This document shows, one piece after another, positions 1 through 14,790 of a stretch of DNA of 14,790 nt. The stretch lies in IMG/VR virus record IMGVR_UViG_2657245448_000011; one strand, written 5' to 3'. The notes under the pieces are model-generated. The model saw only the letters and a list, made by a program, of their open reading frames with translations, did not search any database and was not told the DNA's origin. Each line of letters opens with the position of its first letter. The stretch's first letter is position 1. The stretch comes from a virus (taxonomy: Duplodnaviria; Heunggongvirae; Uroviricota; Caudoviricetes). A program made the translations under genes and the position numbers.

Positions 1-672
1 ATGTGTGGACGTTTCGTTCAATCAATGACGCGTGAAGATTATCTCGCCCTGCTCGCTGTTGAGGCCGAACTCGACATACCATACGATCCCGAACCAATTG
101 GTCGTTTTAACGTCGCGCCAGGCACCAAAGTTCTGCTACTGAGCGAACATGATGAGCAGTTGCATCTTGATCCAGTTATCTGGGGATACGCCCCCGGTTG
201 GTGGGATAAACCGCCACTCATTAACGCACGGTCTGAAACTGCGGCCACCAGCAGAATGTTTAAACCACTCTGGCAACATGGTCGCGCAATTTGCTTTGCT
301 GATGGCTGGTACGAATGGAAAAAGGAAGGTGACAAAAAGCAGCCCTACTTCATTCATCGAGCCGATGGCCAGCCGATATTTATGGCGGCGATCGGCAGCA
401 CACCATTCGAACGTGGAGATGAAGCAGAAGGTTTCCTGATAGTGACAGCTGCGGCCGACAAAGGGCTGGTAGATATACACGACAGGCGGCCTCTGGTACT
501 GTCCCCAGAAGCTGCTCGCGAATGGATGAGACAGGACACTGGAGGGAAAGATGCTGCGGAAATTGCGGCAGACGGTTCCGTACCGGCTGATAAATTTATA
601 TGGCATGCCGTAACGCGCGCCGTCGGGAATGTACGAAATCAAAGCTATGAGCTTATAATGCCGATAAATTAA
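1..672 (+). CDS. yedK: SOS-response-associated peptidase (SRAP), abasic-site processing protein YedK-like
   Basis: Complete 223-aa ORF starting exactly at window position 1. N-terminus MCGRF with Cys2 is the hallmark SRAP nucleophile arrangement; length matches E. coli YedK (about 222 aa). Confidence 0.85.
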   Translation: MCGRFVQSMTREDYLALLAVEAELDIPYDPEPIGRFNVAPGTKVLLLSEHDEQLHLDPVIWGYAPGWWDKPPLINARSETAATSRMFKPLWQHGRAICFADGWYEWKKEGDKKQPYFIHRADGQPIFMAAIGSTPFERGDEAEGFLIVTAAADKGLVDIHDRRPLVLSPEAAREWMRQDTGGKDAAEIAADGSVPADKFIWHAVTRAVGNVRNQSYELIMPIN

Positions 673-690
673 ATCTGTTAGGACTGTATA

Positions 691-1161
691 ATGACAGACA
701 AGGAAATCCTGGAGTGGATCCATAACACTTCTCCGACTATCGAACAGCAGTTGAGGCGCTGGCTGGATGAAATTATGGAGAATGGCCATCAGTCATCCGA
801 GTACGCTCATGGCATAGAGTTACATGACAGGATTCGATTGGCCCTTTTAAGGCCCTACACCAATAAATACAACGGATTTTGTCTTTCGATTTGCACCGTG
901 CGTTTGCCTGCTGAAATTCAGGGAAAAGGATGGTTTAAAAGTTTCCTTAAACTTTGTTGCGAGATAAATCCTTGGCACGATGTAATTTTGGAAGACGTAG
1001 GGAATGAACATCTACTTTCTTTCTGCAAGCGCAACAATTTTCAAGTTCTGGACCCGTTTTATAAAACAACATATGTGGTTAATAAACAGGCTGTAATGAA
1101 TTTGGTAACCAAGCCTCTAGGACGCTATACCGATTATTTAACCCTCAACAAATCAGTGTAA
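691..1161 (+). CDS. yedL: GNAT-family N-acetyltransferase-like protein, possible YedL orthologue
   Basis: 156-aa ORF 18 bp after yedK with AGGA upstream of ATG. Contains GNAT-like motifs (IQGKGWFKSFL and NEHLLSFCKRNNFQV). Recalled E. coli synteny places yedL directly after yedK. Visibly AT-rich compared with flanking genes. Last 28 bp overlap the umuC 3' end convergently. Confidence 0.55.
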   Translation: MTDKEILEWIHNTSPTIEQQLRRWLDEIMENGHQSSEYAHGIELHDRIRLALLRPYTNKYNGFCLSICTVRLPAEIQGKGWFKSFLKLCCEINPWHDVILEDVGNEHLLSFCKRNNFQVLDPFYKTTYVVNKQAVMNLVTKPLGRYTDYLTLNKSV

Positions 1162-2402
1162 CGCGTAGTATACCTTGGAGAGAGCATCTCTCGCTTCATC
1201 TGCCACTGCTGCTGTATACCCTGCCCAGCAAAGTAGAGCGTGCCCCTTCCATCTTTCGCGTTCAGATGATCCAGAACTTCCATCAACTTCTCGCTTCCCC
1301 GGCGAGGCGCATTATCCTCGAACAGATTCAACTGGGCGATGCCCTGACTGAAGAAATCCCCCAGCATTACCCCGGCTTTCTGATATCGGTGTCCGTCTTT
1401 CCATATTGCATCCAGACTCCGCGTCGCTGCGGCAATGATATCCCGGCTGTCCTGTGTCGGGGTGAGCAGCTTCACCGACGCGCTGTTACCGTAGTACGGT
1501 TCGTCCAACGCAAAGGGTGACGTTTTAACAAAAGTAGATATGAAGCGGCAATACTGATGCTCTCCACGTAACTTTTCTGCGGCGCGTGACGCGTAGCTGC
1601 AGATGGCCTGTCGCATAGCATCATAATCCGTAATACGTTCCCCGAATGATCTGGAACAGACAATTTCCTGCTTTACGGGGGCAAATTCCTCCAGTTCAAG
1701 ACAGCGCTCACCGCGCAGTTCGCGCACCGTTCTCTCGAGGACAACATTGAAGTGCTTCCGGATAAAACGAATATCAGTATCAGCCAGATCCAGAACCGTT
1801 TTAATCCCCATTGCCTCCAGCTTTTTGCTGATACGGCGCCCTACTCCCCAGACCTCATCAACCGGAAGCGCAGCCATCAGTTTGCGCTGGCGTTCGAGGT
1901 TCGATAAGTCCACTACTCCGCCCGTCTGTTTCTGCCATTTCTTGGCTGCATGGTTCGCCAGTTTCGCCAGAGTTTTAGTTTGAGCTATTCCAACCCCAAC
2001 CATCAGTCCTGTATTTTGATAAACAGCATCTTTTAATTCCCGCCCAAAATCCTCAAGTACACGACAATTCCTCACACCAGCAAGATCACAGAAAGCCTCA
2101 TCAATTGAATATATTTCGCAGCGGGGCGACATTGCCTCCAGCGTGGTCATCACACGGTTCGACATATCTGCATAAAGCTCGTAATTGCTGCTGAAACAAA
2201 CCACGCCATATCGACGGAATAAGTCCTTCTGCTTAAAATACGGGTCCCCCATTTTCACACCAGCTTTTTTGGCTGCAGCGTTACGGGCGATAACACAACC
2301 GTCGTTATTGGAAAGAACGACAACAGGTTTGTCTTTCAGATCGGGCCGGAATGCCATCTCACAGCTGGCGTAAAACGAGTTCACATCAACCAGGGCAAAC
2401 AT
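1134..2402 (-). CDS. umuC: DNA polymerase V catalytic subunit UmuC (Y-family translesion polymerase)
   Basis: 422-aa ORF; N-terminus MFALVDVNSFYASCE and SIDEAF motif; C-terminus DLLRVK as in E. coli UmuC; high identity over the full length as far as I can recall the E. coli sequence. Start ATG overlaps umuD stop (TGACATG arrangement). Confidence 0.95.
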   Translation of the reverse strand: MFALVDVNSFYASCEMAFRPDLKDKPVVVLSNNDGCVIARNAAAKKAGVKMGDPYFKQKDLFRRYGVVCFSSNYELYADMSNRVMTTLEAMSPRCEIYSIDEAFCDLAGVRNCRVLEDFGRELKDAVYQNTGLMVGVGIAQTKTLAKLANHAAKKWQKQTGGVVDLSNLERQRKLMAALPVDEVWGVGRRISKKLEAMGIKTVLDLADTDIRFIRKHFNVVLERTVRELRGERCLELEEFAPVKQEIVCSRSFGERITDYDAMRQAICSYASRAAEKLRGEHQYCRFISTFVKTSPFALDEPYYGNSASVKLLTPTQDSRDIIAAATRSLDAIWKDGHRYQKAGVMLGDFFSQGIAQLNLFEDNAPRRGSEKLMEVLDHLNAKDGRGTLYFAGQGIQQQWQMKREMLSPRYTTRYTDLLRVK

Positions 2403-2403
2403 G

Positions 2404-2823
2404 TCAGCTTGCCGCTTTCACGATAAACGTCACAACACCAAAGATATCCAGCGTATCTTCGCTGTTTATCGTAATGGGGGCATAAGAGCTGTTTTCAGGA
2501 ACAAGCATAAGTATTGGCTGTAACTGAAGACGTTTAACCGTGAACTCGCCATCAATGGCAGCGATAACAATATCTCCATGTGCAGGCTTTCTGGAACGGT
2601 CGACGACCAGCAAATCGCCATTCCCGATCCCCGCTCCAGTCATAGAATCACCGGACGACTTCACGAAGTATGTCGCACTTGGATGCTGAACTAATAGTTC
2701 ATTGAGATCAATCCGTTGTTCAACGTAATCCTGCGCTGGTGAGGGAAAGCCACATGGGACAAGATCACTAAATAAGGGAAGCGCAACTATCTGGCGCAGC
2801 TCAGTTGGTGAATAAAACTTCAT
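2404..2823 (-). CDS. umuD: DNA polymerase V accessory subunit UmuD (LexA-like self-cleaving protein)
   Basis: Start trimmed to the internal ATG (MKFYSPTEL...) giving 139 aa, the length of E. coli UmuD. Cys24-Gly25 cleavage site and SGDSM serine motif are present. Immediately upstream of umuC. Confidence 0.9.
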
Positions 2824-2843
2824 AATAAACTCACTCATATTTA

Positions 2844-2863
2844 TACTGTTTATGCATACAGTA
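2844..2863. promoter_or_regulatory. LexA operator (SOS box) proximal to umuD
   Basis: TACTGTTTATGCATACAGTA, a perfect CTG-N10-CAG palindrome matching the TACTG(TA)5CAGTA consensus, 21 bp upstream of the umuD start codon. Confidence 0.8.
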
Positions 2864-2865
2864 TA

Positions 2866-2885
2866 TACTGGCATTCAGCACAGTA
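2866..2885. promoter_or_regulatory. Second LexA operator (SOS box) proximal to dinI-like gene
   Basis: TACTGGCATTCAGCACAGTA, again CTG-N10-CAG with TACTG/CAGTA arms, 2 bp from the first box and 16 bp upstream of the dinI-like ATG, directly followed by an AAAGAGGAG ribosome-binding site. Confidence 0.75.
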
Positions 2886-2900
2886 AAGAGGAGTTAAAGC

Positions 2901-3143
2901 ATGTTCGTGGAACTCGTTTATGACAAAAGGAATTTTGATGGGCTGCCCGGTGCAAAAGATATCATTCTGGGCGAATTGACCAGGAGGGTTCACCGGATCT
3001 TCCCCGATGCTGATGTTCGGGTTAAGCCGATGATGACACCGCCAGCGATCAACACTGACGCCAGCAAGCATGAGAAAGAACAGATAAGCCGTACTGTTCA
3101 GGAAATGTTTGAAGAGACTGATATGTGGCTGGTTTCAGATTAA
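2901..3143 (+). CDS. dinI: DinI-family DNA-damage-inducible protein (prophage-type paralogue)
   Basis: 80-aa ORF with strong RBS; resembles DinI in length and in the C-terminal acidic motif (MFEETDMWLVSD versus E. coli DinI ...SADDWFVSE). Preceded by a LexA box. Confidence 0.85.
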   Translation: MFVELVYDKRNFDGLPGAKDIILGELTRRVHRIFPDADVRVKPMMTPPAINTDASKHEKEQISRTVQEMFEETDMWLVSD

Positions 3144-3420: not shown

Positions 3421-3801
3421 CTAAACACCTGGAAGGGTTCTATTCTGCGCATACCGTCCCTTACCAAACATCCGTACAGCGTAGTACATCACCGCACGCT
3501 TCCACTTTGGTACCCCCAGAACCTGCATCCCGTCCAGAAAAATGAGATCGGCTTCTTTCTTTGTCCGTAGCGCATTATCGTACATGTAATCATGAATGAT
3601 AGCGGCTTTGGCGTACCGACCATCAGGCGGGAGGAATGTCCAGAATAACCGTGGTACGCTCGCCAGATCGGTCACAAACCCAGCCGGGACCTTAATCACA
3701 TCACTGTTGTCATCCGAGAGGTAAAACTCGAAGGGTTCGTACACCCGCCATTTGTAATGACCCAGCATTTCCAGAATCGCCGGGGTGGTGAATTTACTCA
3801 T
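3421..3801 (-). CDS. DUF1353-like phage-associated protein
   Basis: Start trimmed to ATG at 3801 (MSKFTTPAIL..., 126 aa). Motifs VPAGFVTDLASVP and IIHDYMYD resemble the DUF1353 family often found next to phage tail-fibre genes. Family assignment is from memory, not a search. Confidence 0.6.
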   Translation of the reverse strand: MSKFTTPAILEMLGHYKWRVYEPFEFYLSDDNSDVIKVPAGFVTDLASVPRLFWTFLPPDGRYAKAAIIHDYMYDNALRTKKEADLIFLDGMQVLGVPKWKRAVMYYAVRMFGKGRYAQNRTLPGV

Positions 3802-3892
3802 TGACTTGTTCCGTCTGATGGTGAAAAAAATCATTCCACCAACAGGATCATTCCTTTCCCGTTGGTAACATACTAATAGGTTATTTTTCTTG

Positions 3893-3926: not shown

Positions 3927-4070
3927 TATTCGCGTATCAGTGCTGTCTCATGTTCTAAAATGAGGCTTTGATCATTGTTTTTCACAGGCTGATGGTGAAA
4001 TAAATCTAACCGCCCTGTGGGCCGGGTGCTGTAGATAAGAAATGTGCATAGCATAATAGCCTCGTAGTCT

Positions 4071-4280: not shown

Positions 4281-4320
4281 GGCCGCTTCTGTCTCTCCTG
4301 TACAGAAGCGGCTTTTTTTT
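4281..4320 (+). terminator. Strong rho-independent terminator-like hairpin (plus strand), related to the hairpin at 4071
   Basis: 11-bp perfect stem GCCGCTTCTGT/ACAGAAGCGGC with a 9-nt loop, followed by 9 T. Shares the GCCGCTTC/GAAGCGGC stem core and an upstream TAATGG motif with the 4071 hairpin. Confidence 0.55.
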
Positions 4321-4372
4321 TCAGCTCATCACCCAGCTGGTTCGATAGTGATGGTCCCGGCAGTGTTCACGA

Positions 4373-4744
4373 CTACCAGCGTTTTACGAATGGCTGAAAG
4401 TCATTATTGTTAACCCTGAAGCGTGTATACATACTGCCGTCTGCCATGAACAGGATTTGTGTTATCCATTCTTTTGCGCCACCCACCGCAGGAATGACCT
4501 TCTGTCCGTCATCGCCCGCGCCGAGTGAATCAAGAGTCTGCACCATGCCATACGCCATACTGCCCGATTGCGGATTACCTTCCGTATCCGGGGTGATCTT
4601 CATATAACCGACAGTTGCGGTGTTCAGATTTGCACAGACTGGCGCATCACCCGCATGGAACAGGCCAAACTTTCCGGCCAGCGAGACAATACCTGATGCT
4701 TTACCTGCCTGTGAGCCCAGCGTATTTGAGTTTATAATTATCAT
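4373..4744 (-). CDS. Hypothetical protein (123 aa), last gene of the tail-fibre operon
   Basis: ORF with ATG at 4744 preceded by AAGGTGA Shine-Dalgarno; 8 nt after the stop of the upstream gene. Gly/Ala-rich; no domain recognised. Confidence 0.6.
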   Translation of the reverse strand: MIIINSNTLGSQAGKASGIVSLAGKFGLFHAGDAPVCANLNTATVGYMKITPDTEGNPQSGSMAYGMVQTLDSLGAGDDGQKVIPAVGGAKEWITQILFMADGSMYTRFRVNNNDFQPFVKRW

Positions 4745-4752
4745 GATTGTTA

Positions 4753-5121
4753 TCACCTTTTAATCCAGTTACCCCAGCCTGTCAGCCAGTTCCCCCCTCT
4801 TGAGTGCAGTGAATTATCCGTGCCGTAGAACAACTGATAAGTTACTTCACCAGGCTCCAGAACTTCAGGGATGTATCGCGTACCATCCGGGCCAGCACCT
4901 TTTGATGATATTGTCCAGACAATACCCCAGGGCCATCTCGAATCTGGTACGTGAGGAACGGCTTTGGTGGAGCGCATGAACCCCGTCAGCGTCATGTTGA
5001 AGTCCATTACTTCCGTCATCATGCCTGCCGGCACTGAACCAAACAGCCCGGCAATGACCAGTGGATCGATATCCGGATGCTCTGGAGTAACGAGGGACGG
5101 GGGTTTGATATAGATAGCCAT
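4753..5121 (-). CDS. Hypothetical protein (122 aa)
   Basis: ATG-initiated ORF (MAIYIKPP...), same strand and operon context as the tail-fibre genes; Trp/Gly-rich; RBS is weak. No domain recognised. Confidence 0.55.
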   Translation of the reverse strand: MAIYIKPPSLVTPEHPDIDPLVIAGLFGSVPAGMMTEVMDFNMTLTGFMRSTKAVPHVPDSRWPWGIVWTISSKGAGPDGTRYIPEVLEPGEVTYQLFYGTDNSLHSRGGNWLTGWGNWIKR

Positions 5122-5238
5122 AGTGATTTACCAGTTAACCAGAATAATCTGGCTGTGAACTGAAGATACCAGCCCGCCACCATTCCCGGCTGACGAGCCC
5201 CCCAAAAATCCTGGTGCAGGAATGGGCATCTTAATCTC

Positions 5239-5472
5239 CTACGTCACGATGACACGGACACTGCCGTCATATCCTGATGCTCTGATCCACAGGCGGTCCG
5301 GCGGTGTGGCCGTGAATTTTTCATTATTCATATTGTGCGCAGGATGCGCGGCGTCAGGTTTCTGGGCGCTGGAGCAGACATCAGCCACCCCGTTTATCTG
5401 GACAAAAACCGTCTGACTGCCGTCCGTCAGCTCCTGCCACTCCCGCGCCACAATCATTTCTCTGGTTGCCAT
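5239..5472 (-). CDS. Hypothetical small protein (77 aa), paralogue of the adjacent 89-aa protein
   Basis: ATG start with GGAGG Shine-Dalgarno. Clear paralogy to the upstream ORF (REWQELTDG versus RAWQQLTDG; WIRASGYDGSVRVIVT versus WVRAAGYDNKVRLFIT). Confidence 0.6.
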   Translation of the reverse strand: MATREMIVAREWQELTDGSQTVFVQINGVADVCSSAQKPDAAHPAHNMNNEKFTATPPDRLWIRASGYDGSVRVIVT

Positions 5473-5498
5473 AACCCCTCCGGCCCCTTCTGGCCCAC

Positions 5499-5768
5499 TC
5501 AGTTTTTAATCACAGGAACGCTGGCTGCAGCTCTGTCAGTAATGAACAGTCTGACCTTGTTGTCATAGCCCGCGGCCCTCACCCATGCCTTTGAGGGCGG
5601 GGAAATAATAATGGTTTGTCCCGGGCACCTCAGGGAAGGCGCACACTCTCCCGGCCTGATATCGCTGTCACACAGTTCGATGACACCAAAAAACGCAAAG
5701 ATCATATTCTCCTCACCGTCGGTCAGTTGCTGCCACGCTCTTCCCACTTCCAGTACCCTGGTTCCCAT
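5499..5768 (-). CDS. Hypothetical small protein (89 aa), paralogue of the adjacent 77-aa protein
   Basis: ATG start with GGGAG Shine-Dalgarno, 15 bp after the tfa-like stop. Paralogous to 5239..5472. Confidence 0.6.
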   Translation of the reverse strand: MGTRVLEVGRAWQQLTDGEENMIFAFFGVIELCDSDIRPGECAPSLRCPGQTIIISPPSKAWVRAAGYDNKVRLFITDRAAASVPVIKN

Positions 5769-5782
5769 ACTGTCTCCCGCCC

Positions 5783-6385
5783 TTACCCTGTTCTGGTTAT
5801 GTCCTCCACAGATTCATTCCAGCCCACCCTGTAATTTCTGATGGCGTCCAGCACAGTCAGTGCATTCATTTCGGCTTTCATCTGCAACTGACGCTGGTTA
5901 ATCTGCATGCCCTTTTCAAACATCGCCTTTTCAATGGCGTCCGCCAGCGCGAGCAGTTCTTCCGCTGTCACCGGCACGACAGTGTTATCACCATCAGTCC
6001 AGGCAAAGCCATCCGGCAGTACATTTCGTGACGCCATCGCCACCGAGGTACTCAGCCGGGATTGTGTTTTTTTGCCATAATCCCAGCGCCTGCCGTTCCA
6101 GGTCATCAGATACTCTTTCTCTTCCTGCGCATCGCGCCAGGCGTTAATTTCATCCCGCTTAGCCTGTCTGACTGACGCCAGCATCGCCTCAGTAACGGTA
6201 AACGGTGTCACTTCGCCGTATTTTCCGGCGACCAGGTCTGTATAGAGCTGTTGACCATAGTCAGTCGGGTCATGGGCTGCTGCGGTATAGGGAAGATAGC
6301 GCTCACTGTCACTGAACAGCACCTGCACCGAAATCGTCCCGTTCTCGTTATATCGCCCGTGACGGGCATCAGTTATGGTTACCAT
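5783..6385 (-). CDS. tfa: Tail fibre assembly protein (Tfa-like chaperone)
   Basis: 200-aa ORF 10 bp after the tail-fibre gene. C-terminal region (LDAIRNYRVGWNE) resembles the conserved Tfa C-terminus (lambda Tfa ...AWKKYRVLLNRVD). Confidence 0.7.
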   Translation of the reverse strand: MVTITDARHGRYNENGTISVQVLFSDSERYLPYTAAAHDPTDYGQQLYTDLVAGKYGEVTPFTVTEAMLASVRQAKRDEINAWRDAQEEKEYLMTWNGRRWDYGKKTQSRLSTSVAMASRNVLPDGFAWTDGDNTVVPVTAEELLALADAIEKAMFEKGMQINQRQLQMKAEMNALTVLDAIRNYRVGWNESVEDITRTG

Positions 6386-6395
6386 CGATTTTCCC

Positions 6396-7661
6396 TCAAC
6401 GAATACGCTGGAAAAGCGTTAGTTGATCATAGACATCCCGGAAATACCCCATAGCCTGCCAAGTACCCGTAAGCACAACATTTTCAGTGATGATGATGCT
6501 CACGTTGCCATACAAATAAAGGCCACCTGGTTTTATGTATCTCCCTTCAATCTCACTTCCGAATCCACCTCCGCCTGAAGCATATCCCAGCACATAAGAC
6601 CCCACATCCCCCGGTGAAATAATTCCCCCGCCACTTCCCCGGATATACTCCATGAATGCGGCCATCGAAGTATCACTACCCTGTGGCTGCTGTGACACCC
6701 AGACATCATAAGCAGACGGTCCCGGCGTTTTGGCGATGTCCTGCGCGTCTTTGAGCGCCTGCTGTGCCCCCTGCTCATGAATATCGGCCTGCCGCTCGCT
6801 GTCTGCTGCGGCGTTTTTGTTTCGGTTAACCTCTGCTGCGACCTCCTCAACCCGGGTGACCTGCTCTGTGAGTTCGCCCCTTAACTGCTCCGCTGCCACA
6901 GGAACCGCTTCTGCCACCGCATCAGCTGCTGCGCTTTTTGCGGCATTTTCTGCGCGAACAGCATGCTCTTCTGCGAGGGTTTCGCTGCGCGCGGAAGCTT
7001 CCTCGCTGCTCTTCGCGTTTCGCGCCGAGGTCGCTGAGTTCTGCTCGCTCGTTGCCGCGTTCTCTTCTGAGCGTGCAGCTGACGCTGCACTGCCTGACGA
7101 GGCCTGGCTACTTCGCTCTGAAGCCTGCGCACTTTCTTCAGACTGGCGCGCAGAATCACCGGCATGACGTTCACTCAGGGCCGCAGCCTGGGCATCGAGT
7201 CCGGTCTGATGTGCCAGCCGGGCAACCTCCTCTTTCTCCCGGGCGGCGTCATTCCTGGCATCCTCCGCGGCTTTGCGGATTGCATCCATTCCGGACGCCG
7301 CGAGTTCAGCCTGCTCAGCAGCCTCCCGGGCCTGCTGCGCCATCTGCTCAAACTGCTTCAGTGCATCCGGAGTCAGATAATCCCCGCTCACCACCGTCAG
7401 GAAATCATTCAGCGTGCCGTCCGGCGAATCCGCATAGACATCAATGACGCCTACTTTTTTTGGAGGCCAGCCTTCCATGGCCAGAGTGACCTCATAGCGC
7501 GCCGGTTGCGCCTCAATACGATAGCGACCAGCATTTGTTCCAACGCTGGCCGTGGTGGTGACTACGACATTACTGGTGGTGTTCAGCGCCCGCAGCAGGA
7601 TCTGACAGTCGGGCACGGGTCGCCCGGCCCCATCAATGAGGGTGCCTGAGATTATCGGCAT
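6396..7661 (-). CDS. stf: Side tail fibre protein (Stf-like)
   Basis: 421-aa ORF after J. N-terminus (GTLIDGAGRPVPDCQILL...RYEV...GTLNDFL) resembles the lambda Stf N-terminal tail-attachment region; long Ala/Ser/Glu-rich low-complexity middle; Gly-rich C-terminal domain. Confidence 0.8.
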   Translation of the reverse strand: MPIISGTLIDGAGRPVPDCQILLRALNTTSNVVVTTTASVGTNAGRYRIEAQPARYEVTLAMEGWPPKKVGVIDVYADSPDGTLNDFLTVVSGDYLTPDALKQFEQMAQQAREAAEQAELAASGMDAIRKAAEDARNDAAREKEEVARLAHQTGLDAQAAALSERHAGDSARQSEESAQASERSSQASSGSAASAARSEENAATSEQNSATSARNAKSSEEASARSETLAEEHAVRAENAAKSAAADAVAEAVPVAAEQLRGELTEQVTRVEEVAAEVNRNKNAAADSERQADIHEQGAQQALKDAQDIAKTPGPSAYDVWVSQQPQGSDTSMAAFMEYIRGSGGGIISPGDVGSYVLGYASGGGGFGSEIEGRYIKPGGLYLYGNVSIIITENVVLTGTWQAMGYFRDVYDQLTLFQRIR

Positions 7662-7752: not shown

Positions 7753-10700
7753 TCAGCTGATACTGATACCCGCTGTTGATTTCTTCATGACGACTACCAG
7801 TAATTCACTGATACTGGTAGTTGGGGTTCGATTGCCAGAACCATTTGAAAAAACATTGAAGGTAAGGGTGACATGCCCTTTTCCTGCTGGCATATCAATA
7901 GCAGCCGAAAAAACTCCTGAAGAATCCGTAGCGGGTTGATGGAAAATGACCTGTCCATTATTTAATACCTGCAACTGACAGGTGGAATACCAGTACCTTA
8001 TGCCTGCATTACCAACTTCATTTATCTCATGCTTTGCTCCACGGAATAACACTGGTGGAATAATAATCTGCCTGTCAAAAGGCTGATCATCATAAATTGT
8101 CACCGTTACGGTACCACTGGCATAACTGCCATTCCGGGGAAAGGCTTTTCCCACCGTTTTAACAAGATCACCTTCAATCTGGTTGGCAGACAGTTTTCCC
8201 AGAATCCGACAGTTCTGGTTAACAGTAACGTTGTTAAGCGTCCCGGAATTCGCATTAATGTTGCCGCTGAAATCCGCGTTTTTCGCGGTCAGCTTTCCGT
8301 CCGGCGCCAGGGAAAACACCGGCGGATTCCCCCCACTGGTGATGGTCGGGGCATTAATGACTGTCGCACTGAGAAATTTAATCAGCGCTTCATTGATAAA
8401 CGTCTGCCCTCCCTGCGTGACCAGTGCAGGCGTGGTATTTCCATTTGCCGGATCGATAAAAGCCACCCTGTTTGCAGCAAGAAGGATCTGACTTAACTGC
8501 TCGCCATCGACCTCTTCTATTCCGGCACCAATTCCGGCGACATAAGTTACGCCATCTTTGGTCTTCTGGATTTTCAGCATATACAGGGCGTTAAGGTTAT
8601 CATTCGTGTCCTTCTGCACTTTCTGAATCTGCTGTATCGTGGCGCTTTGATCTTCCAGTGTCTTATTTACGGTCTGCTCTATTTCGCTTTTTGTGTCATC
8701 CACCACTTTGCTGATTTCAGCAATATCATCCTCGAGTAAACTGTTGTCGATCTGCTCAAACAACTCCTGTGCCAGATGTGTTTTTTGTATTTCACCGGCA
8801 AAAAAATCAAGATACCCTTGCGCATCCCGGCTGGCCTGACCCACCGCCTCTGCAAACGCTGATTTCCCCACCAGGTTGACGCTGCGTACGTAAAAATAAT
8901 GGTCCTGAAGCGGCTTAAGTCCGTCCTTGACCATATATGACGAAACACCCAGCCGCCGCGCGCTGGACGTAATCTCATCCGCGCTGTTGAGTTGTTTTAT
9001 GGAATACCAGAATTCGTACTGCACATCCGGTTGGTAGTAAGTCTGGTGCGGAGTCACGGTTATCTGAAAGTAACCCGGTGTCAGTTCAATGACCACCGGC
9101 GCTTCCGGAGGCCGGATACTGAAGTCCACCTGAGCAGGCTCCCCCTGCTGGCCAAAGCCATTGATGGCCCGTACGGTGAGCGTATAATCCCCCAGTGGCA
9201 GGGCGCGGAACGTGTACTCAGTGTCACTGGTGGTAGCGGAATCGACCAGCAGAACCGGATCATCGTCCTGACCACTGCCCGTGGTCAGACGGACCAGGAA
9301 ACGAACGCCCTTCACCACCCGCGGCGTATCCCAGTGCGCCCGGGCCTGGTACTGATTTCCTTCCGCTTCTGTGGTAACCGTCAGATGTTCCACTGTCGGA
9401 GGAACCACACTGTTGGTGGTGCCCGGTAGCGGATCAAAGTGCGCACCGTTGTCCACAATGGCTTCTTTCTCAGGCACATGCTGAAGGGCTGTTATGGCGT
9501 ACGTTCCGTCGCTGCTTTCTTTGATGCGTATGCAGCGGAACAGGCGCTGGCGCAGGGAAGGCAGTTTCAGCCCCCAGACACTGTACGCCGCAATCCCCGC
9601 TGGCATATTACTGACCGTTACCCGATCCGGGGCGGGCTGCCCGGTCACATCCACCGTAACCGGTTTTCCGTCCGCACCAATGATATTCAGCGTGGCAACG
9701 CCGGTTTTGGGTATTTCCACCTCCCGGTCGAGGGTCAGAGTACGTGTCATCGCATCCACGCTGAGGATGCGCCCGCCGATACTCACCGCGGCATAATCAT
9801 TGTCGCAGACCTCAATGATATCGCCCGGGGTGTGCCGCAGACCTTCTGCCCCGACAGAAAATTCCACCGTCTGGGTTTCCAGTTGTTCCGTTTTAATAAC
9901 CCACAGTCCGGCGCGGTGCGCCTGCCCCCGGCTCGTACAGCCAAACGCATCCATTTTCAGCAGATTCCGTCCGTCCCGCAGGATTGCCGCTTTATCTTCC
10001 ACCAGCAGAGTGGAGGTCTTCCAGCCGTTCTGCGGATCGGTGTACCGGACCTCGACCGCATTATGCCGGTCCTTACGCGCACTGTAACTGTAGCGGAACT
10101 GCACGCCCTGGCTGTCGGTGACCACATTGCTGTTGGTGTAGGTCCAGACTTTATCTGCAGGGCGGTCCTGAATGAACGTCAGCGTCCGCCCGTTCCAGAC
10201 CGGCATGCAGCGCATCACCGAGCAGAAATCAGCCAGCACGTCGTAAGCTTTTCGCTGGGTGGCCAGATAAGCATTAAACGTCATACGGGGCTCTGTGCCG
10301 CCAAAACCATCGGGGATCATCTGATCGCAGTACTGCGCGATGGCATACAGCGCCCATTTATCCACCTCGCTTATGCCTATGCTCCCGCCCATACCGTAAC
10401 GGGGGTGAGTCAGCATATCCAGCAGACACCAGGCCGGGTTACTGGTGTACGCCGGTTTAAGGACTCCATTCCAGATCCCGGTATATGTCCGCGTTTTCGG
10501 GTCATAATTTGACGGAACCTGAACAATGCGCCCGTAAATATGGTAATTGATCGTCACCTGCTGATTGCCAAACTGCTCTGCAGCCACCTTCAGCCCCACC
10601 ACAACCGTATTCGGGTACGCCTGCTTCAGGTCAGTGATTTCGGTATAGGATGACCAGGTGGATTTATTCTGTAACTGATCGGTGGTGCTGTCCGGCGTCA

Positions 10701-11253
10701 CCCGTACCATGCGAACATTGAACGGGCGCGGGGGTAACTCCTCCAGTACCACTGAGGCAAGAAACTGTGAGGTGGTTTTCCCGTTAATATAAATATCTTT
10801 GACCGTCACCCATCCATCAGCACGCTGGATTTGAAGAACGAGATGCAATGAGGTATTCAGACGATCGCCTTTGTTATTACTTTCCTGGAGATAGGGCGTA
10901 CCAAACGTGATACGCAGCCGGTCAATCTCCTGAGCGGTAATGGTCCGGGTAATGGGGGCATCCTGTTTGATCTCAGCGTTGACCATGACCTCCACGCCGG
11001 TATCTTCAAACCCCTCCAGCGGGGTCTGCTCCTGTTCACCGGCGTTATAAATTGCTGTGACACCGTGTACGTTGTAGCTGTCATCGTCATTTACCAGGGG
11101 GGTGTTGTTGATAAGGATACTTTGCATCCCCTTAACCAGTCCCTCGATCGGCCCTTCCCCGATGGCGTCAATGAAGCTCAGTTCCTGTACCGATTTCAGG
11201 TTATCCGGCTCTTCATACGGCGTGCTCTGCTTTTTCTTGTTCTTCCCACCCAT
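7753..11253 (-). CDS. J: Host specificity protein J (central tail fibre/tail tip)
   Basis: 1166-aa ORF colinear with lambda J from N-terminus (MGGKNKKKQ...DNLKS...) through conserved blocks ([53 protein letters not shown]). Confidence 0.95.
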
Positions 11254-13470: not shown

Positions 13471-13998
13471 ATGGAATTAAGAATATTAGTGATGGCTGGA
13501 ATGTTGATCAGTTGTTCAGCGGTGGCAGAAAACAGCCTGACCGTCAAAATGAACGACGTACTCTCTGACGGTGCAGGTAAAAACATCGGCGAAATAACTG
13601 TGTCTGAGACACCTTACGGCCTGCTTTTTACCCCCGACCTTAACAACCTTACCCCGGGAGTTCATGGCTTCCATGTCCATACTAATCCATCCTGCATGCC
13701 TGGTCTCCAGGATGGTAAAAATGTGCCAGCCCTGATGGCCGGTGGCCATCTGGATCCTGAGAAAACAGGTAAACACCTTGGACCGTACAATGATAAAGGT
13801 CATCTGGGCGATCTTCCTGGGCTGGTTGTCAGTACAGATGGTAATGCCACATACCCGGTCCTGGCACCGCGCCTCAAATCGCTGTCCGATCTTAAGGGGC
13901 ATTCGCTTATGATCCACAAAGGCGGTGATAACTACTCCGACACTCCGGTGACTCTTGGCGGAGGTGGGACACGTTTTTCTTGTGGTGTCATAAACTAA
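13471..13998 (+). CDS. sodC: Periplasmic Cu,Zn superoxide dismutase (prophage-borne, SodCI-like)
   Basis: 175-aa ORF with signal-peptide-like N-terminus; His-rich metal-binding motifs (GFHVHTNPSC, GGHLDP, GHLGDLPGL, HKGGDNYSD) and C-terminal GGGG..CGVI. RBS AAAGGAA. Opposite strand to the tail genes, typical of a moron. Confidence 0.9.
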   Translation: MELRILVMAGMLISCSAVAENSLTVKMNDVLSDGAGKNIGEITVSETPYGLLFTPDLNNLTPGVHGFHVHTNPSCMPGLQDGKNVPALMAGGHLDPEKTGKHLGPYNDKGHLGDLPGLVVSTDGNATYPVLAPRLKSLSDLKGHSLMIHKGGDNYSDTPVTLGGGGTRFSCGVIN

Positions 13999-14059
13999 CT
14001 GCAGGTAATACAACAAAAAGACACCGGACAGCACCTTTAGGAGGAGGCTGGAAAATTTA

Positions 14060-14083
14060 CCCAATAAAAAACCCTCTCAGCGG
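14060..14083. terminator. Bidirectional rho-independent terminator between sodC and the lom-like gene
   Basis: AAAAAA-CCCTC-tcagcg-GAGGG-TTTTTT: a GC stem flanked by an A-run and a T-run, between the convergent 3' ends of sodC (13998) and the lom-like gene (14113). Confidence 0.6.
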
Positions 14084-14112
14084 AGGGTTTTTTATTGGAA
14101 TATTGAATACTG

Positions 14113-14790
<678 letters not shown>

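What the first reader, a model, noticed from the sequence alone, without database searches (positions are those of the whole stretch)
5239..5768. Tandem paralogous small proteins with conserved N- and C-terminal blocks and a divergent middle
The 89-aa and 77-aa proteins share an N-terminal block (R-x-W-Q-x-L-T-D-G) and a C-terminal block (W-[IV]-R-A-[AS]-G-Y-D-x-x-V-R) but differ completely in the central 30 to 40 residues. Each has its own strong ribosome-binding site. Conserved ends around a variable core is a pattern seen in diversifying binding proteins or paired specificity modules.
Basis: seen in the sequence. Interest (0 to 1): 0.45.

Follow-up and report, generated by a model that had tools for sequence, protein, structure and literature searches.

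The report
Paired small tail-fibre accessory proteins
The two small neighbouring genes are real, old paralogues of an uncharacterised family of about 77-residue jelly-roll phage proteins that sits inside host-recognition (tail-fibre) gene modules; they are probably accessory partners of the receptor-binding proteins encoded next to them, and nothing indicates a diversifying or paired specificity system.

Summary
Observation confirmed. The minus-strand ORFs 5499-5768 (A1, 89 aa) and 5239-5472 (A2, 77 aa) align without gaps at 36% identity (E 4e-22). Identity is 11/18 at the N end, 6/38 in the middle and 11/21 at the C end.

Both belong to PHROG 4772 (unknown function), with no Pfam, NCBIfam or PADLOC match. 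An exhaustive search found about 70 clusters of 75-85 aa single-domain proteins. The AlphaFold2 model of A2 (pLDDT 97) is a minimal eight-strand jelly roll of cupin type, without a conserved metal-binding motif.

Most of the conserved-ends pattern is family-wide fold signature (W12, TDG, PP, W62, R64). Orthologue comparisons show purifying selection (dN/dS 0.13-0.32). A1 and A2 are not each other's closest relatives. Related loci carry one or two copies regardless of how many receptor-binding genes follow.

In every context examined the gene lies in a late module, in most of them beside tail or fibre genes. It usually sits 9-18 nt upstream of a fibre-tip, knob or esterase gene. Contexts are lambdoid and P2-like prophages, Ackermannviridae (upstream of an Sf6-type knob), Pseudomonas phage 15b and baseplate clusters. 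One fusion protein carries the domain, and a homologue was detected in purified virions.

Best reading: a small accessory subunit of the receptor-binding module. The mechanism is inferred. Ordinary-to-modest interest.

The parts
5499..5768 (-). A1, 89 aa: phrog_4772 member with a 12-residue C-terminal extension
   Evidence: ORF; phrog_4772 E 1.9e-12; orthologue P0003 (E. coli, 89% identity, 104 aa because TGA is CGA there)
5239..5472 (-). A2, 77 aa: phrog_4772 member, minimal eight-strand jelly roll
5128..5229 (-). 33-codon remnant (MPIPAPGFLGGSSAGNGGG...) of the 5' end of a SASA/DUF6645 esterase gene that follows A2 intact in E. coli relatives
   Evidence: 93% DNA identity to L002 from A2 through about 27 codons of the 685-aa gene, then homology ends; a decayed copy without ATG in L008
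4753..5121 (-). B1, 122 aa: disordered N-terminal tail plus a beta domain resembling phage fibre 'knob' / receptor-binding domains
4373..4744 (-). B2, 123 aa from the ATG at 4744 (ORF listing starts it at GTG 4756): paralogue of B1
   Evidence: B1 vs B2 33% identity, E 2e-12; the L008 orthologue starts MIIVNSNTLG
5783..6385 (-). DUF4376 protein, 200 aa: probable tail-fibre chaperone
   Evidence: PF14301 E 1.5e-19; DUF4376 occurs in papers describing Alteromonas phage tail fibres and their chaperones (PMC10579305, PMC7289586; abstracts only read)
6396..7661 (-). Side tail fibre, 421 aa
   Evidence: PF08400 phage_tail_N E 1.3e-33; many PHROG tail-fibre families
3421..3834 (-). DUF1353 protein: the conserved distal end of the variable module (start more likely at MSKFTTPAILEML, about 3801)
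   Evidence: PF07087 E 1.1e-31; present after the variable genes in L002-L005, L010, L014-L016, L018, L023
7753..11253 (-). Lambda J-like tail tip / host specificity protein, 1166 aa: shows that the module is the distal end of a lambdoid tail operon
   Evidence: ORF; Pfam domains of the equivalent 1166-aa gene (same first 28 residues) in L008 (FNIII-A_GpJ, Phage-tail_3, Ig_J, Phage_Tail_Tip)

Best explanation
A1 and A2 are two old, diverged copies of a small (about 77 aa) single-domain jelly-roll protein family, PHROG 4772. The family is a late-expressed accessory component of phage host-recognition modules.

I think each copy most likely partners physically with a receptor-binding protein encoded beside it, acting as a small adaptor or cap subunit. 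The family-conserved elements (W12, TDG, Q25, PP, W62, R64) would build the fold and perhaps a common contact. The variable middle strands and the 35-45 loop would fit the particular partner.

The tandem pair here looks like the product of modular recombination that stacked two such units. A2 travels with the first 27 or so codons of a now-deleted esterase gene. A1 is an extra unit inserted between the fibre chaperone and A2.

Shown: paralogy, family membership, fold, purifying selection, synteny, one domain fusion, and detection of a homologue in virions.

Inferred: late co-transcription, physical partnership, and the adaptor role.
For: Family and fold: phrog_4772 hits; 79 representative hits, about 70 of them 75-85 aa single-domain proteins; AF2 pLDDT 97; jelly-roll / cupin fold, with the PM2 receptor-binding spike second in the list.

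Synteny across unrelated phage types:
- Lambdoid prophages: Stf, then DUF4376 or a Gp38_N adhesin, then A, then B1-B2, a 685-aa SASA esterase, a free fibre-tip ORF or a 173-aa ORF, then DUF1353.
- P2-like L014: after fibre, Tfa and invertase.
- The three Ackermannviridae inspected (CBA120 orf225, UPM 2146, Sajous1 gp120): directly upstream of a knob protein; the CBA120 knob matches the Sf6 knob 3RWN at E 2e-25.
- Pseudomonas phage 15b: directly upstream of a 487-aa fibre-like protein.
- L017: next to baseplate W/J/I genes.
- L022: between a phrog_11600 protein and a minor tail protein.

Other points: gaps to the downstream gene are 9-18 nt with an RBS, and there are no terminators above the shuffle expectation. 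P0056 fuses a phrog_11600 N-terminal region to a C-terminal A domain. In virion mass spectrometry of CsCl-purified Sajous1, gp120 (97% identical to CBA120 orf225) gave 4 spectra and the knob gp119 gave 16 (PMC10892097, Table 6). The homology break just inside the downstream gene shows that A2 and the N-terminal segment of its neighbour are inherited as one block. No defence-system match.
Against: No family member has a tested function. The virion evidence is 4 spectra in one study, whose authors warn that low counts can be contaminants. In L024/L026 and phage 15b the gene lies between lysis and terminase genes, a classic position for accessory cargo. Gene order is not uniform: sometimes the fibre-like partner is upstream, sometimes downstream. 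No structure of a complex could be computed, and the shared M-[A/P/I]-I N-termini of neighbouring proteins were only seen by eye, not tested against background. In the window itself A2's original partner gene is deleted, so A2 may no longer have its partner here.
Confidence: 0.5

Rival explanations
1. Assembly chaperone. The small jelly roll helps the neighbouring fibre-tip or knob protein fold or trimerise and is then released, or retained only in trace amounts.
For: It sits among fibre genes next to known chaperone types (DUF4376; the Gp38_N adhesin in L015). The spectral count in virions is low (PMC10892097). It is small and tightly spaced, possibly coupled in translation, to the next gene.
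Against: Fibre chaperone genes normally lie downstream of their client, whereas A is usually upstream. Dedicated chaperones (DUF4376) are already present in the same modules. The P0056 fusion places the domain as a permanent C-terminal part of a larger protein. No similarity to Caudo_TAP, gp38 or gp57 families.
Confidence: 0.22
2. A1 and A2 are diversifying binding proteins or a matched specificity pair, for example a heterodimer, or A1 with B1 and A2 with B2.
Against: dN/dS is 0.13-0.32 with no excess in the middle. L008 and L014 have one A with two B genes, and E. coli has two A with one esterase. A1 and A2 are not sister sequences. No DGR-like or invertible repeats. Apart from G-Y-D-x-x-V-R, the conserved ends are family-wide fold motifs.
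Confidence: 0.1
3. Cargo ('moron') unrelated to the tail, for example superinfection exclusion, anti-defence or a small ligand-binding cupin expressed from the prophage.
For: It lies at the extreme end of the tail operon, where lambdoid prophages keep cargo. It lies between lysis and terminase genes in phage 15b and L024/L026. The function of the whole family is unknown.
Against: It is conserved in strictly lytic Ackermannviridae (157 phage records). It has no promoter of its own above background. It is embedded between the adhesin and the fibre-tip/chaperone genes in L015/L018/L021/L023. It gives no PADLOC hit. No cupin metal-binding residues are conserved.
Confidence: 0.12
4. Fragments of one frameshifted gene.
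For: The two ORFs are adjacent, on the same strand and only 26 nt apart.
Against: Each ORF spans the full family profile. Family members are single-domain 75-85 aa proteins. The two sequences are homologous to each other rather than complementary parts. L008 has a single copy.
Confidence: 0.01

Closest known systems
PHROG 4772 (unknown function), including Escherichia phage CBA120 orf225 (gp174), Salmonella phage Sajous1 gp120 and the Klebsiella phage UPM 2146 protein annotated 'tail completion protein'
   Same: Same family by HMM, same length, single domain, and immediately upstream of a small receptor-binding-type protein.
   Different: Only 24-36% identical to the Ackermannviridae members. 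Here there are two tandem copies, in a siphovirus-type lambdoid prophage, followed by pyocin-knob-like proteins instead of an Sf6-type knob. The 'tail completion' label in one record is an annotation, not a tested function.
Cupin / double-stranded beta-helix superfamily (for example HppE 1ZZ6, RmlC, the CENP-C/Mif2 cupin dimerisation domains) and the jelly-roll receptor-binding domain of PM2 spike P1 (2VVE)
   Different: Sequence identity is 3-18%. No conserved His/Glu metal site. At 77 aa it is at the minimal size for the fold. No sequence-level relationship to any solved structure.
Small connector and adhesin subunits of composite tail fibres (T4 gp35/gp36 hinge proteins, T2/T6 gp38 adhesin) and tailspike adaptor systems of CBA120/G7C-type phages
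   Same: From general knowledge: small separately encoded proteins within fibre gene clusters that link or cap larger receptor-binding proteins. Gp38_N adhesin genes sit directly upstream of A in L015/L018/L021/L023.
   Different: No sequence or fold similarity was shown to any of them. The analogy is positional and functional only.
DUF4376 tail-fibre chaperones of Alteromonas phages (V22, A5)
   Same: The same gene neighbourhood: a DUF4376 gene precedes A1. The papers found with the term DUF4376 describe tail fibres that need a cognate chaperone acting as a transient cap (PMC10579305, PMC7289586; abstracts only read).
   Different: A1 and A2 do not match DUF4376 and are less than half its size.

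Membership tests
PHROG 4772 (small phage protein, unknown function) | Significant full-length match to the family HMM | tested here: met
   A1 E 1.9e-12 (profile 1-76/79); A2 E 3.9e-19 (1-77/79); CBA120 orf225 E 7e-41
Cupin superfamily (as enzymes or metal-binding proteins) | Double-stranded beta-helix fold | tested here: met
Cupin superfamily (as enzymes or metal-binding proteins) | Conserved His/Glu metal-binding motifs on the two cupin motifs | tested here: not met
   The family-conserved columns are T3, W12, T16, D17, G18, Q25, G28, S35, P39, P58, W62 and R64. The only His (position 46) is present in 49% of members and is absent in A1
Tail fibre assembly / chaperone families (Caudo_TAP PF02413, DUF4376 PF14301, Gp38) | HMM match to the family | tested here: not met
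   No Pfam hit at E up to 1 and no NCBIfam hit at E up to 0.1 for A1 or A2
Diversity-generating or invertible specificity cassettes (DGR targets, Mu/P1 G/C-segment type) | Template/variable repeat with a reverse transcriptase, or inverted repeats with an invertase flanking the variable part | tested here: not met
   No direct or inverted repeat involves 5239-5768; the only nucleotide match between A1 and A2 is 21 nt. No invertase or RT was recognised on reading the ORF list; the other window ORFs were not scanned against Pfam. An invertase is adjacent in L014 only, with A outside the fibre segment
Virion structural protein | Detected in purified particles | tested here: inconclusive
   The homologue Sajous1 gp120 gave 4 spectra in CsCl-purified virions (PMC10892097, Table 6; identity established). 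There are no data for the window's own prophage
Anti-phage defence systems (PADLOC) | HMM match | tested here: not met
   No hit for A1, A2, B1, B2 or DUF1353
R-pyocin / phage fibre 'knob' domain (applies to B1/B2, the neighbours) | Fold similarity to solved knob domains | tested here: inconclusive

The most novel reading that the evidence does not exclude
PHROG 4772 proteins are a general 'plug' for receptor-binding proteins. In this reading the small jelly roll binds the flexible N-terminal peptide (M-[A/P/I]-I-...) of whatever knob, fibre tip or esterase is encoded next to it and docks it onto the tail fibre or baseplate. This would hold in siphoviruses, myoviruses and Ackermannviridae alike. 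Tandem copies such as A1/A2 would then give a branched fibre carrying two different accessory binders, and the A gene plus the first 25 or so codons of its neighbour would be the recombination joint for swapping host-range cassettes.
Probability: 0.15. Interest if true: 0.6.

Novelty: new member of a known kind. Interest (0 to 1): 0.3.

Why it matters
If the family really links accessory receptor-binding proteins to fibres or baseplates, it would name a widespread, unstudied building block of phage host-recognition devices. It is present in therapeutic-candidate Ackermannviridae as well as in Salmonella and E. coli prophages. It would also mark a natural joint for engineering host range. As it stands, the finding mainly assigns two hypothetical genes to an uncharacterised phage family, gives that family a fold and a consistent genomic context, and removes the suggestion of a diversifying or paired system.

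Tried and rejected
- Megablast of 4300-6500 against the phage and complete E. coli collections found nothing.
- Word-index protein searches found only near-identical sequences. The exhaustive profile search was needed.
- The large WD40 and FN3 proteins in that search are false positives from summed repeats and were dropped.
- A profile search against PDB sequences found no hit.
Single-protein scans for P0035 and P0009 found nothing, and P0017 had no tblastn hit in phages.
- The genome-contig scans were unproductive: no relative in the first; two matches (Faecousia, Nocardia) in the second, neither passing the family HMM.
- BFVD fold matches are all uncharacterised proteins.
- Literature searches for CBA120 orf226 and for an Ackermannviridae baseplate structure locating these proteins found nothing.
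- I first suspected that Sajous1 gp214 ('tail completion protein', 196 spectra) was the homologue. The record shows the homologue is gp120, with 4 spectra.
- Rfam, promoter/terminator and repeat scans gave nothing relevant.
- The cupin-enzyme, DGR/invertible-cassette, defence-system and split-gene readings were considered and rejected (see the membership test).

Full report
**What is in the window**

The ORF map shows the distal end of a lambdoid tail operon on the minus strand. In order it reads:
- tail L, K and I-like genes;
- a 1166-aa J-like tip protein (7753-11253);
- a 421-aa side tail fibre with a phage_tail_N domain (6396-7661; PF08400, E 1.3e-33);
- a 200-aa DUF4376 protein (5783-6385);
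- the two ORFs of the finding, A1 (5499-5768, 89 aa) and A2 (5239-5472, 77 aa);
- two further small ORFs, B1 (4753-5121) and B2 (4373-4744);
- a DUF1353 gene (3421-3834).

No stretch of 4300-6500 is close to any record in the phage or complete E. coli collections. The nearest relatives are prophage contigs from E. coli assemblies, IMG/VR contigs and read-archive assemblies.

**Checking the observation**

A1 and A2 align over 77 residues without a gap: 28 identities, E 4e-22. Identity is 11/18 in residues 1-18, 6/38 in 19-56 and 11/21 in 57-77. The description is therefore correct, apart from 'differ completely': G28, V29, C33, S35, P39 and P44 are kept.

Both genes have good ribosome-binding sites. 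Each covers the full profile of its family, so the frameshifted-gene alternative fails.

**What the family is**

Both proteins match PHROG 4772, a family of unknown function. Pfam, NCBIfam and PADLOC give nothing.

The word-index search found only near-identical sequences. An exhaustive profile search over 1.84 billion representatives returned 79 hits. About 70 of them are single-domain proteins of 75-85 aa with the consensus M-x-T...W-Q-Q-[ILV]-T-D-G...Q...G...C-x-S...P...P-P-x-x-x-W-[IV]-R. The few large hits are WD40 or FN3 repeat proteins that scored by summing weak repeat matches.

None of the cupin metal ligands is conserved. No solved structure is related by sequence. BFVD returns only uncharacterised small phage proteins.

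**Is the conserved-ends pattern special?**

Largely not. Positions identical between A1 and A2 are enriched in the columns conserved across the whole family (mean top-residue fraction 0.55 vs 0.35, p 0.0065). Only G-Y-D-x-x-V-R (67-73) is not conserved across the family as a whole; it recurs in the close orthologues P0001 and P0003.

Selection is purifying:
- A1, window vs E. coli orthologue: dN/dS 0.32.
- A2, vs E. coli: 0.14; vs L008: 0.13.
- Neighbouring genes: 0.15-0.25.
- The middle region never exceeds 0.46, and that rests on 3-5 changes.

A1 and A2 are not each other's nearest relatives. A2 is 49% identical to P0005 but 36% to A1, and in a neighbour-joining tree their smallest common clade holds 55 of 69 sequences. 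The pair is therefore an old duplication or, more likely, two units brought together by recombination. No repeats of DGR or invertible type are present.

**Genomic context elsewhere**

I searched the ORFs of all fetched loci with an HMM built from the family alignment. I annotated the neighbours with Pfam and PHROGs.

In enterobacterial prophages the gene always lies in one module: Stf, then DUF4376 or a Gp38_N-type adhesin, then A, then a variable set of genes, then DUF1353. The variable set is one of:
- B1-B2 (window, L008, L014);
- a 685-aa SASA/DUF6645 esterase (E. coli loci L002-L007, L010);
- a free-standing 126-131-aa ORF resembling the C-terminal tip of the window's own fibre, plus a DUF4376 gene (L015, L018, L021, L023);
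- a 173-aa ORF (L016).

Other contexts:
- L014 is P2-like, with A just after the fibre, Tfa and invertase genes.
- In Ackermannviridae (157 phage records hit; three inspected) the gene is directly upstream of a 169-172-aa 'tail needle knob'. The CBA120 copy is a true homologue of the Sf6 knob (3RWN, E 2e-25).
- In Pseudomonas phage 15b it precedes a 487-aa fibre-like protein.
- In L017/L034 it lies next to baseplate W/J/I genes.
- In L022/L029/L030 it lies between a phrog_11600 protein and a minor tail protein.
- P0056 is a fusion of a phrog_11600-type N-terminal region with a C-terminal A domain.

Distances from A to the next gene are 9-18 nt with an RBS. No terminators above shuffle expectation interrupt the run in the window.

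Copy number is two only in the window, its near-identical IMG/VR contigs and the close E. coli loci (including IMG/VR and metagenome contigs L010, L020, L033). Everywhere else it is one, whatever follows.

**Experimental evidence for a relative**

A published proteome of CsCl-purified Salmonella phage Sajous1 virions lists gp119 ('putative tail needle knob') with 16 spectra and the hypothetical gp120 with 4 (PMC10892097, Table 6). The GenBank record shows gp120 is the 77-aa gene upstream of the knob. It is 97% identical to CBA120 orf225 and matches A2 at E 9e-7.

This is weak but direct evidence that a family member travels with the particle. The authors themselves caution about low counts.

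**The neighbours in the window**

B1 and B2 are a second tandem paralogue pair (33% identity, E 2e-12). B1 has 49 homologue clusters; all that carry a source name are Salmonella enterica, and they differ from it by 25-35%.

Between A2 and B1 lies a 33-codon ORF (5128-5229). It is the 5' remnant of the esterase gene that follows A2 in E. coli. DNA identity of 93% runs from A2 through about 27 codons of that gene and then stops. L008 has the same remnant without its ATG. So A2 and the N-terminal segment of its neighbour were inherited as a block, and the body of the neighbour was replaced by B1-B2.

**Interpretation**

The facts point to a late-expressed accessory protein of the host-recognition apparatus. 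These facts are a tight operon position in late modules, mostly beside fibre or tail genes, in several unrelated phage types, a domain fusion, presence in strictly lytic phages, a jelly-roll fold, purifying selection and a virion hit.

I commit to the reading that it is a small structural partner (adaptor or cap) of the adjacent receptor-binding protein, with confidence 0.5. A released chaperone is the main rival at 0.22.

The proteins next to A often begin M-[A/P/I]-I-..., and B1's N-terminus is disordered. That would suit docking by a short peptide, but I did not test this motif against background and no complex could be modelled.

Cargo or defence readings are unlikely given the lytic-phage distribution, though not excluded.

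**Novelty and score**

These are new members of an already catalogued but uncharacterised phage family. The tandem arrangement is a local variant. A specialist would find the family-level pattern a useful lead rather than a surprise: a conserved 77-aa jelly roll beside very different receptor-binding proteins. Interest 0.3.

Noticed in passing
window 5128-5229 (-): A 33-codon ORF (MPIPAPGFLGGSSAGNGGGLVSSVHSQIILVNW) is the 5' remnant of a 685-aa SASA/DUF6645 esterase gene that is intact after A2 in E. coli prophages. Homology to E. coli ends about 27 codons into the gene, which marks a recombination joint. L008 carries a further decayed copy.
   Followed up: yes
window 4373-5121 (-): There is a second tandem paralogue pair, B1 (122 aa) and B2 (123 aa), 33% identical. 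The B1 model has a disordered N-terminal tail and a beta domain whose best structural matches are all phage receptor-binding or fibre 'knob' proteins. B1 has many 65-75% identical variants in Salmonella enterica, so it is a better candidate for a diversifying binder than A1/A2.
   Followed up: partly
window 6396-6630 (C-terminal ~80 residues of the 421-aa fibre) vs L015:2895-3275, L018:1074-1469, L021:91-480: The C-terminal tip of the window's side tail fibre (...LTLFQRIR) weakly resembles free-standing 126-131-aa ORFs (...GLYQRIA) that follow the A gene in other prophages. The match is E about 0.01 in a 16-sequence database. This suggests that separately encoded copies of fibre-tip domains exist.
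   Followed up: partly
window 3793-3832 and 3967-4006: A 40-nt direct repeat (75% identity) duplicates the 5' end of the DUF1353 gene 174 nt upstream of it. E. coli relatives carry two DUF1353 genes, so this may be the trace of a lost second copy.
   Followed up: no
L002:8001-8315 vs window 5499-5768: The E. coli orthologue of A1 is 104 aa and overlaps the start of A2 by 19 nt, because the window's TGA stop is CGA there. The extra 15 residues are not seen in any other family member.
   Followed up: partly
L014:4370-4975: In a P2-like prophage a Hin/Gin-type DNA invertase gene (identified by reading its N-terminal sequence, MAKIGYIRVSTNDQNTDLQ) lies immediately upstream of the A gene and overlaps it. 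The A-B1-B2-DUF1353 block lies outside the presumed invertible fibre segment.
   Followed up: no
window 1-3143: A cluster related to DNA-damage tolerance lies next to the prophage tail end. It comprises an SRAP/YedK-like ORF (1-672, +), UmuC-like and UmuD-like ORFs (1134-2402 and 2404-2874, -) and a DinI-like ORF (2901-3143, +). The DinI-like ORF scores 39.7 bits on NCBIfam, below the family cut-off of 111. The others were identified only by reading the translations.
   Followed up: no
window 13471-14790: A periplasmic Cu/Zn superoxide dismutase-like ORF (13471-13998, +), an Ail/Lom-type outer-membrane protein ORF (14113-14559, -) and the end of a transposase-like ORF (14584-14790, -) flank the tail genes. 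These would be typical lambdoid prophage cargo. The Ail/Lom call is suggested by Ail_Lom Pfam hits on the gene at the same position in L008 (the two genes were not compared). The other two rest on reading alone.
   Followed up: no
L011:9244-9762 (CBA120 orf226) and L013:4230-4739 (Sajous1 gp119): Ackermannviridae myophages encode a free-standing homologue of the Sf6 podophage tail-needle knob (3RWN, E 2e-25). The Sajous1 copy was detected in virions with 16 spectra. No paper found says where it sits in the particle.
   Followed up: partly
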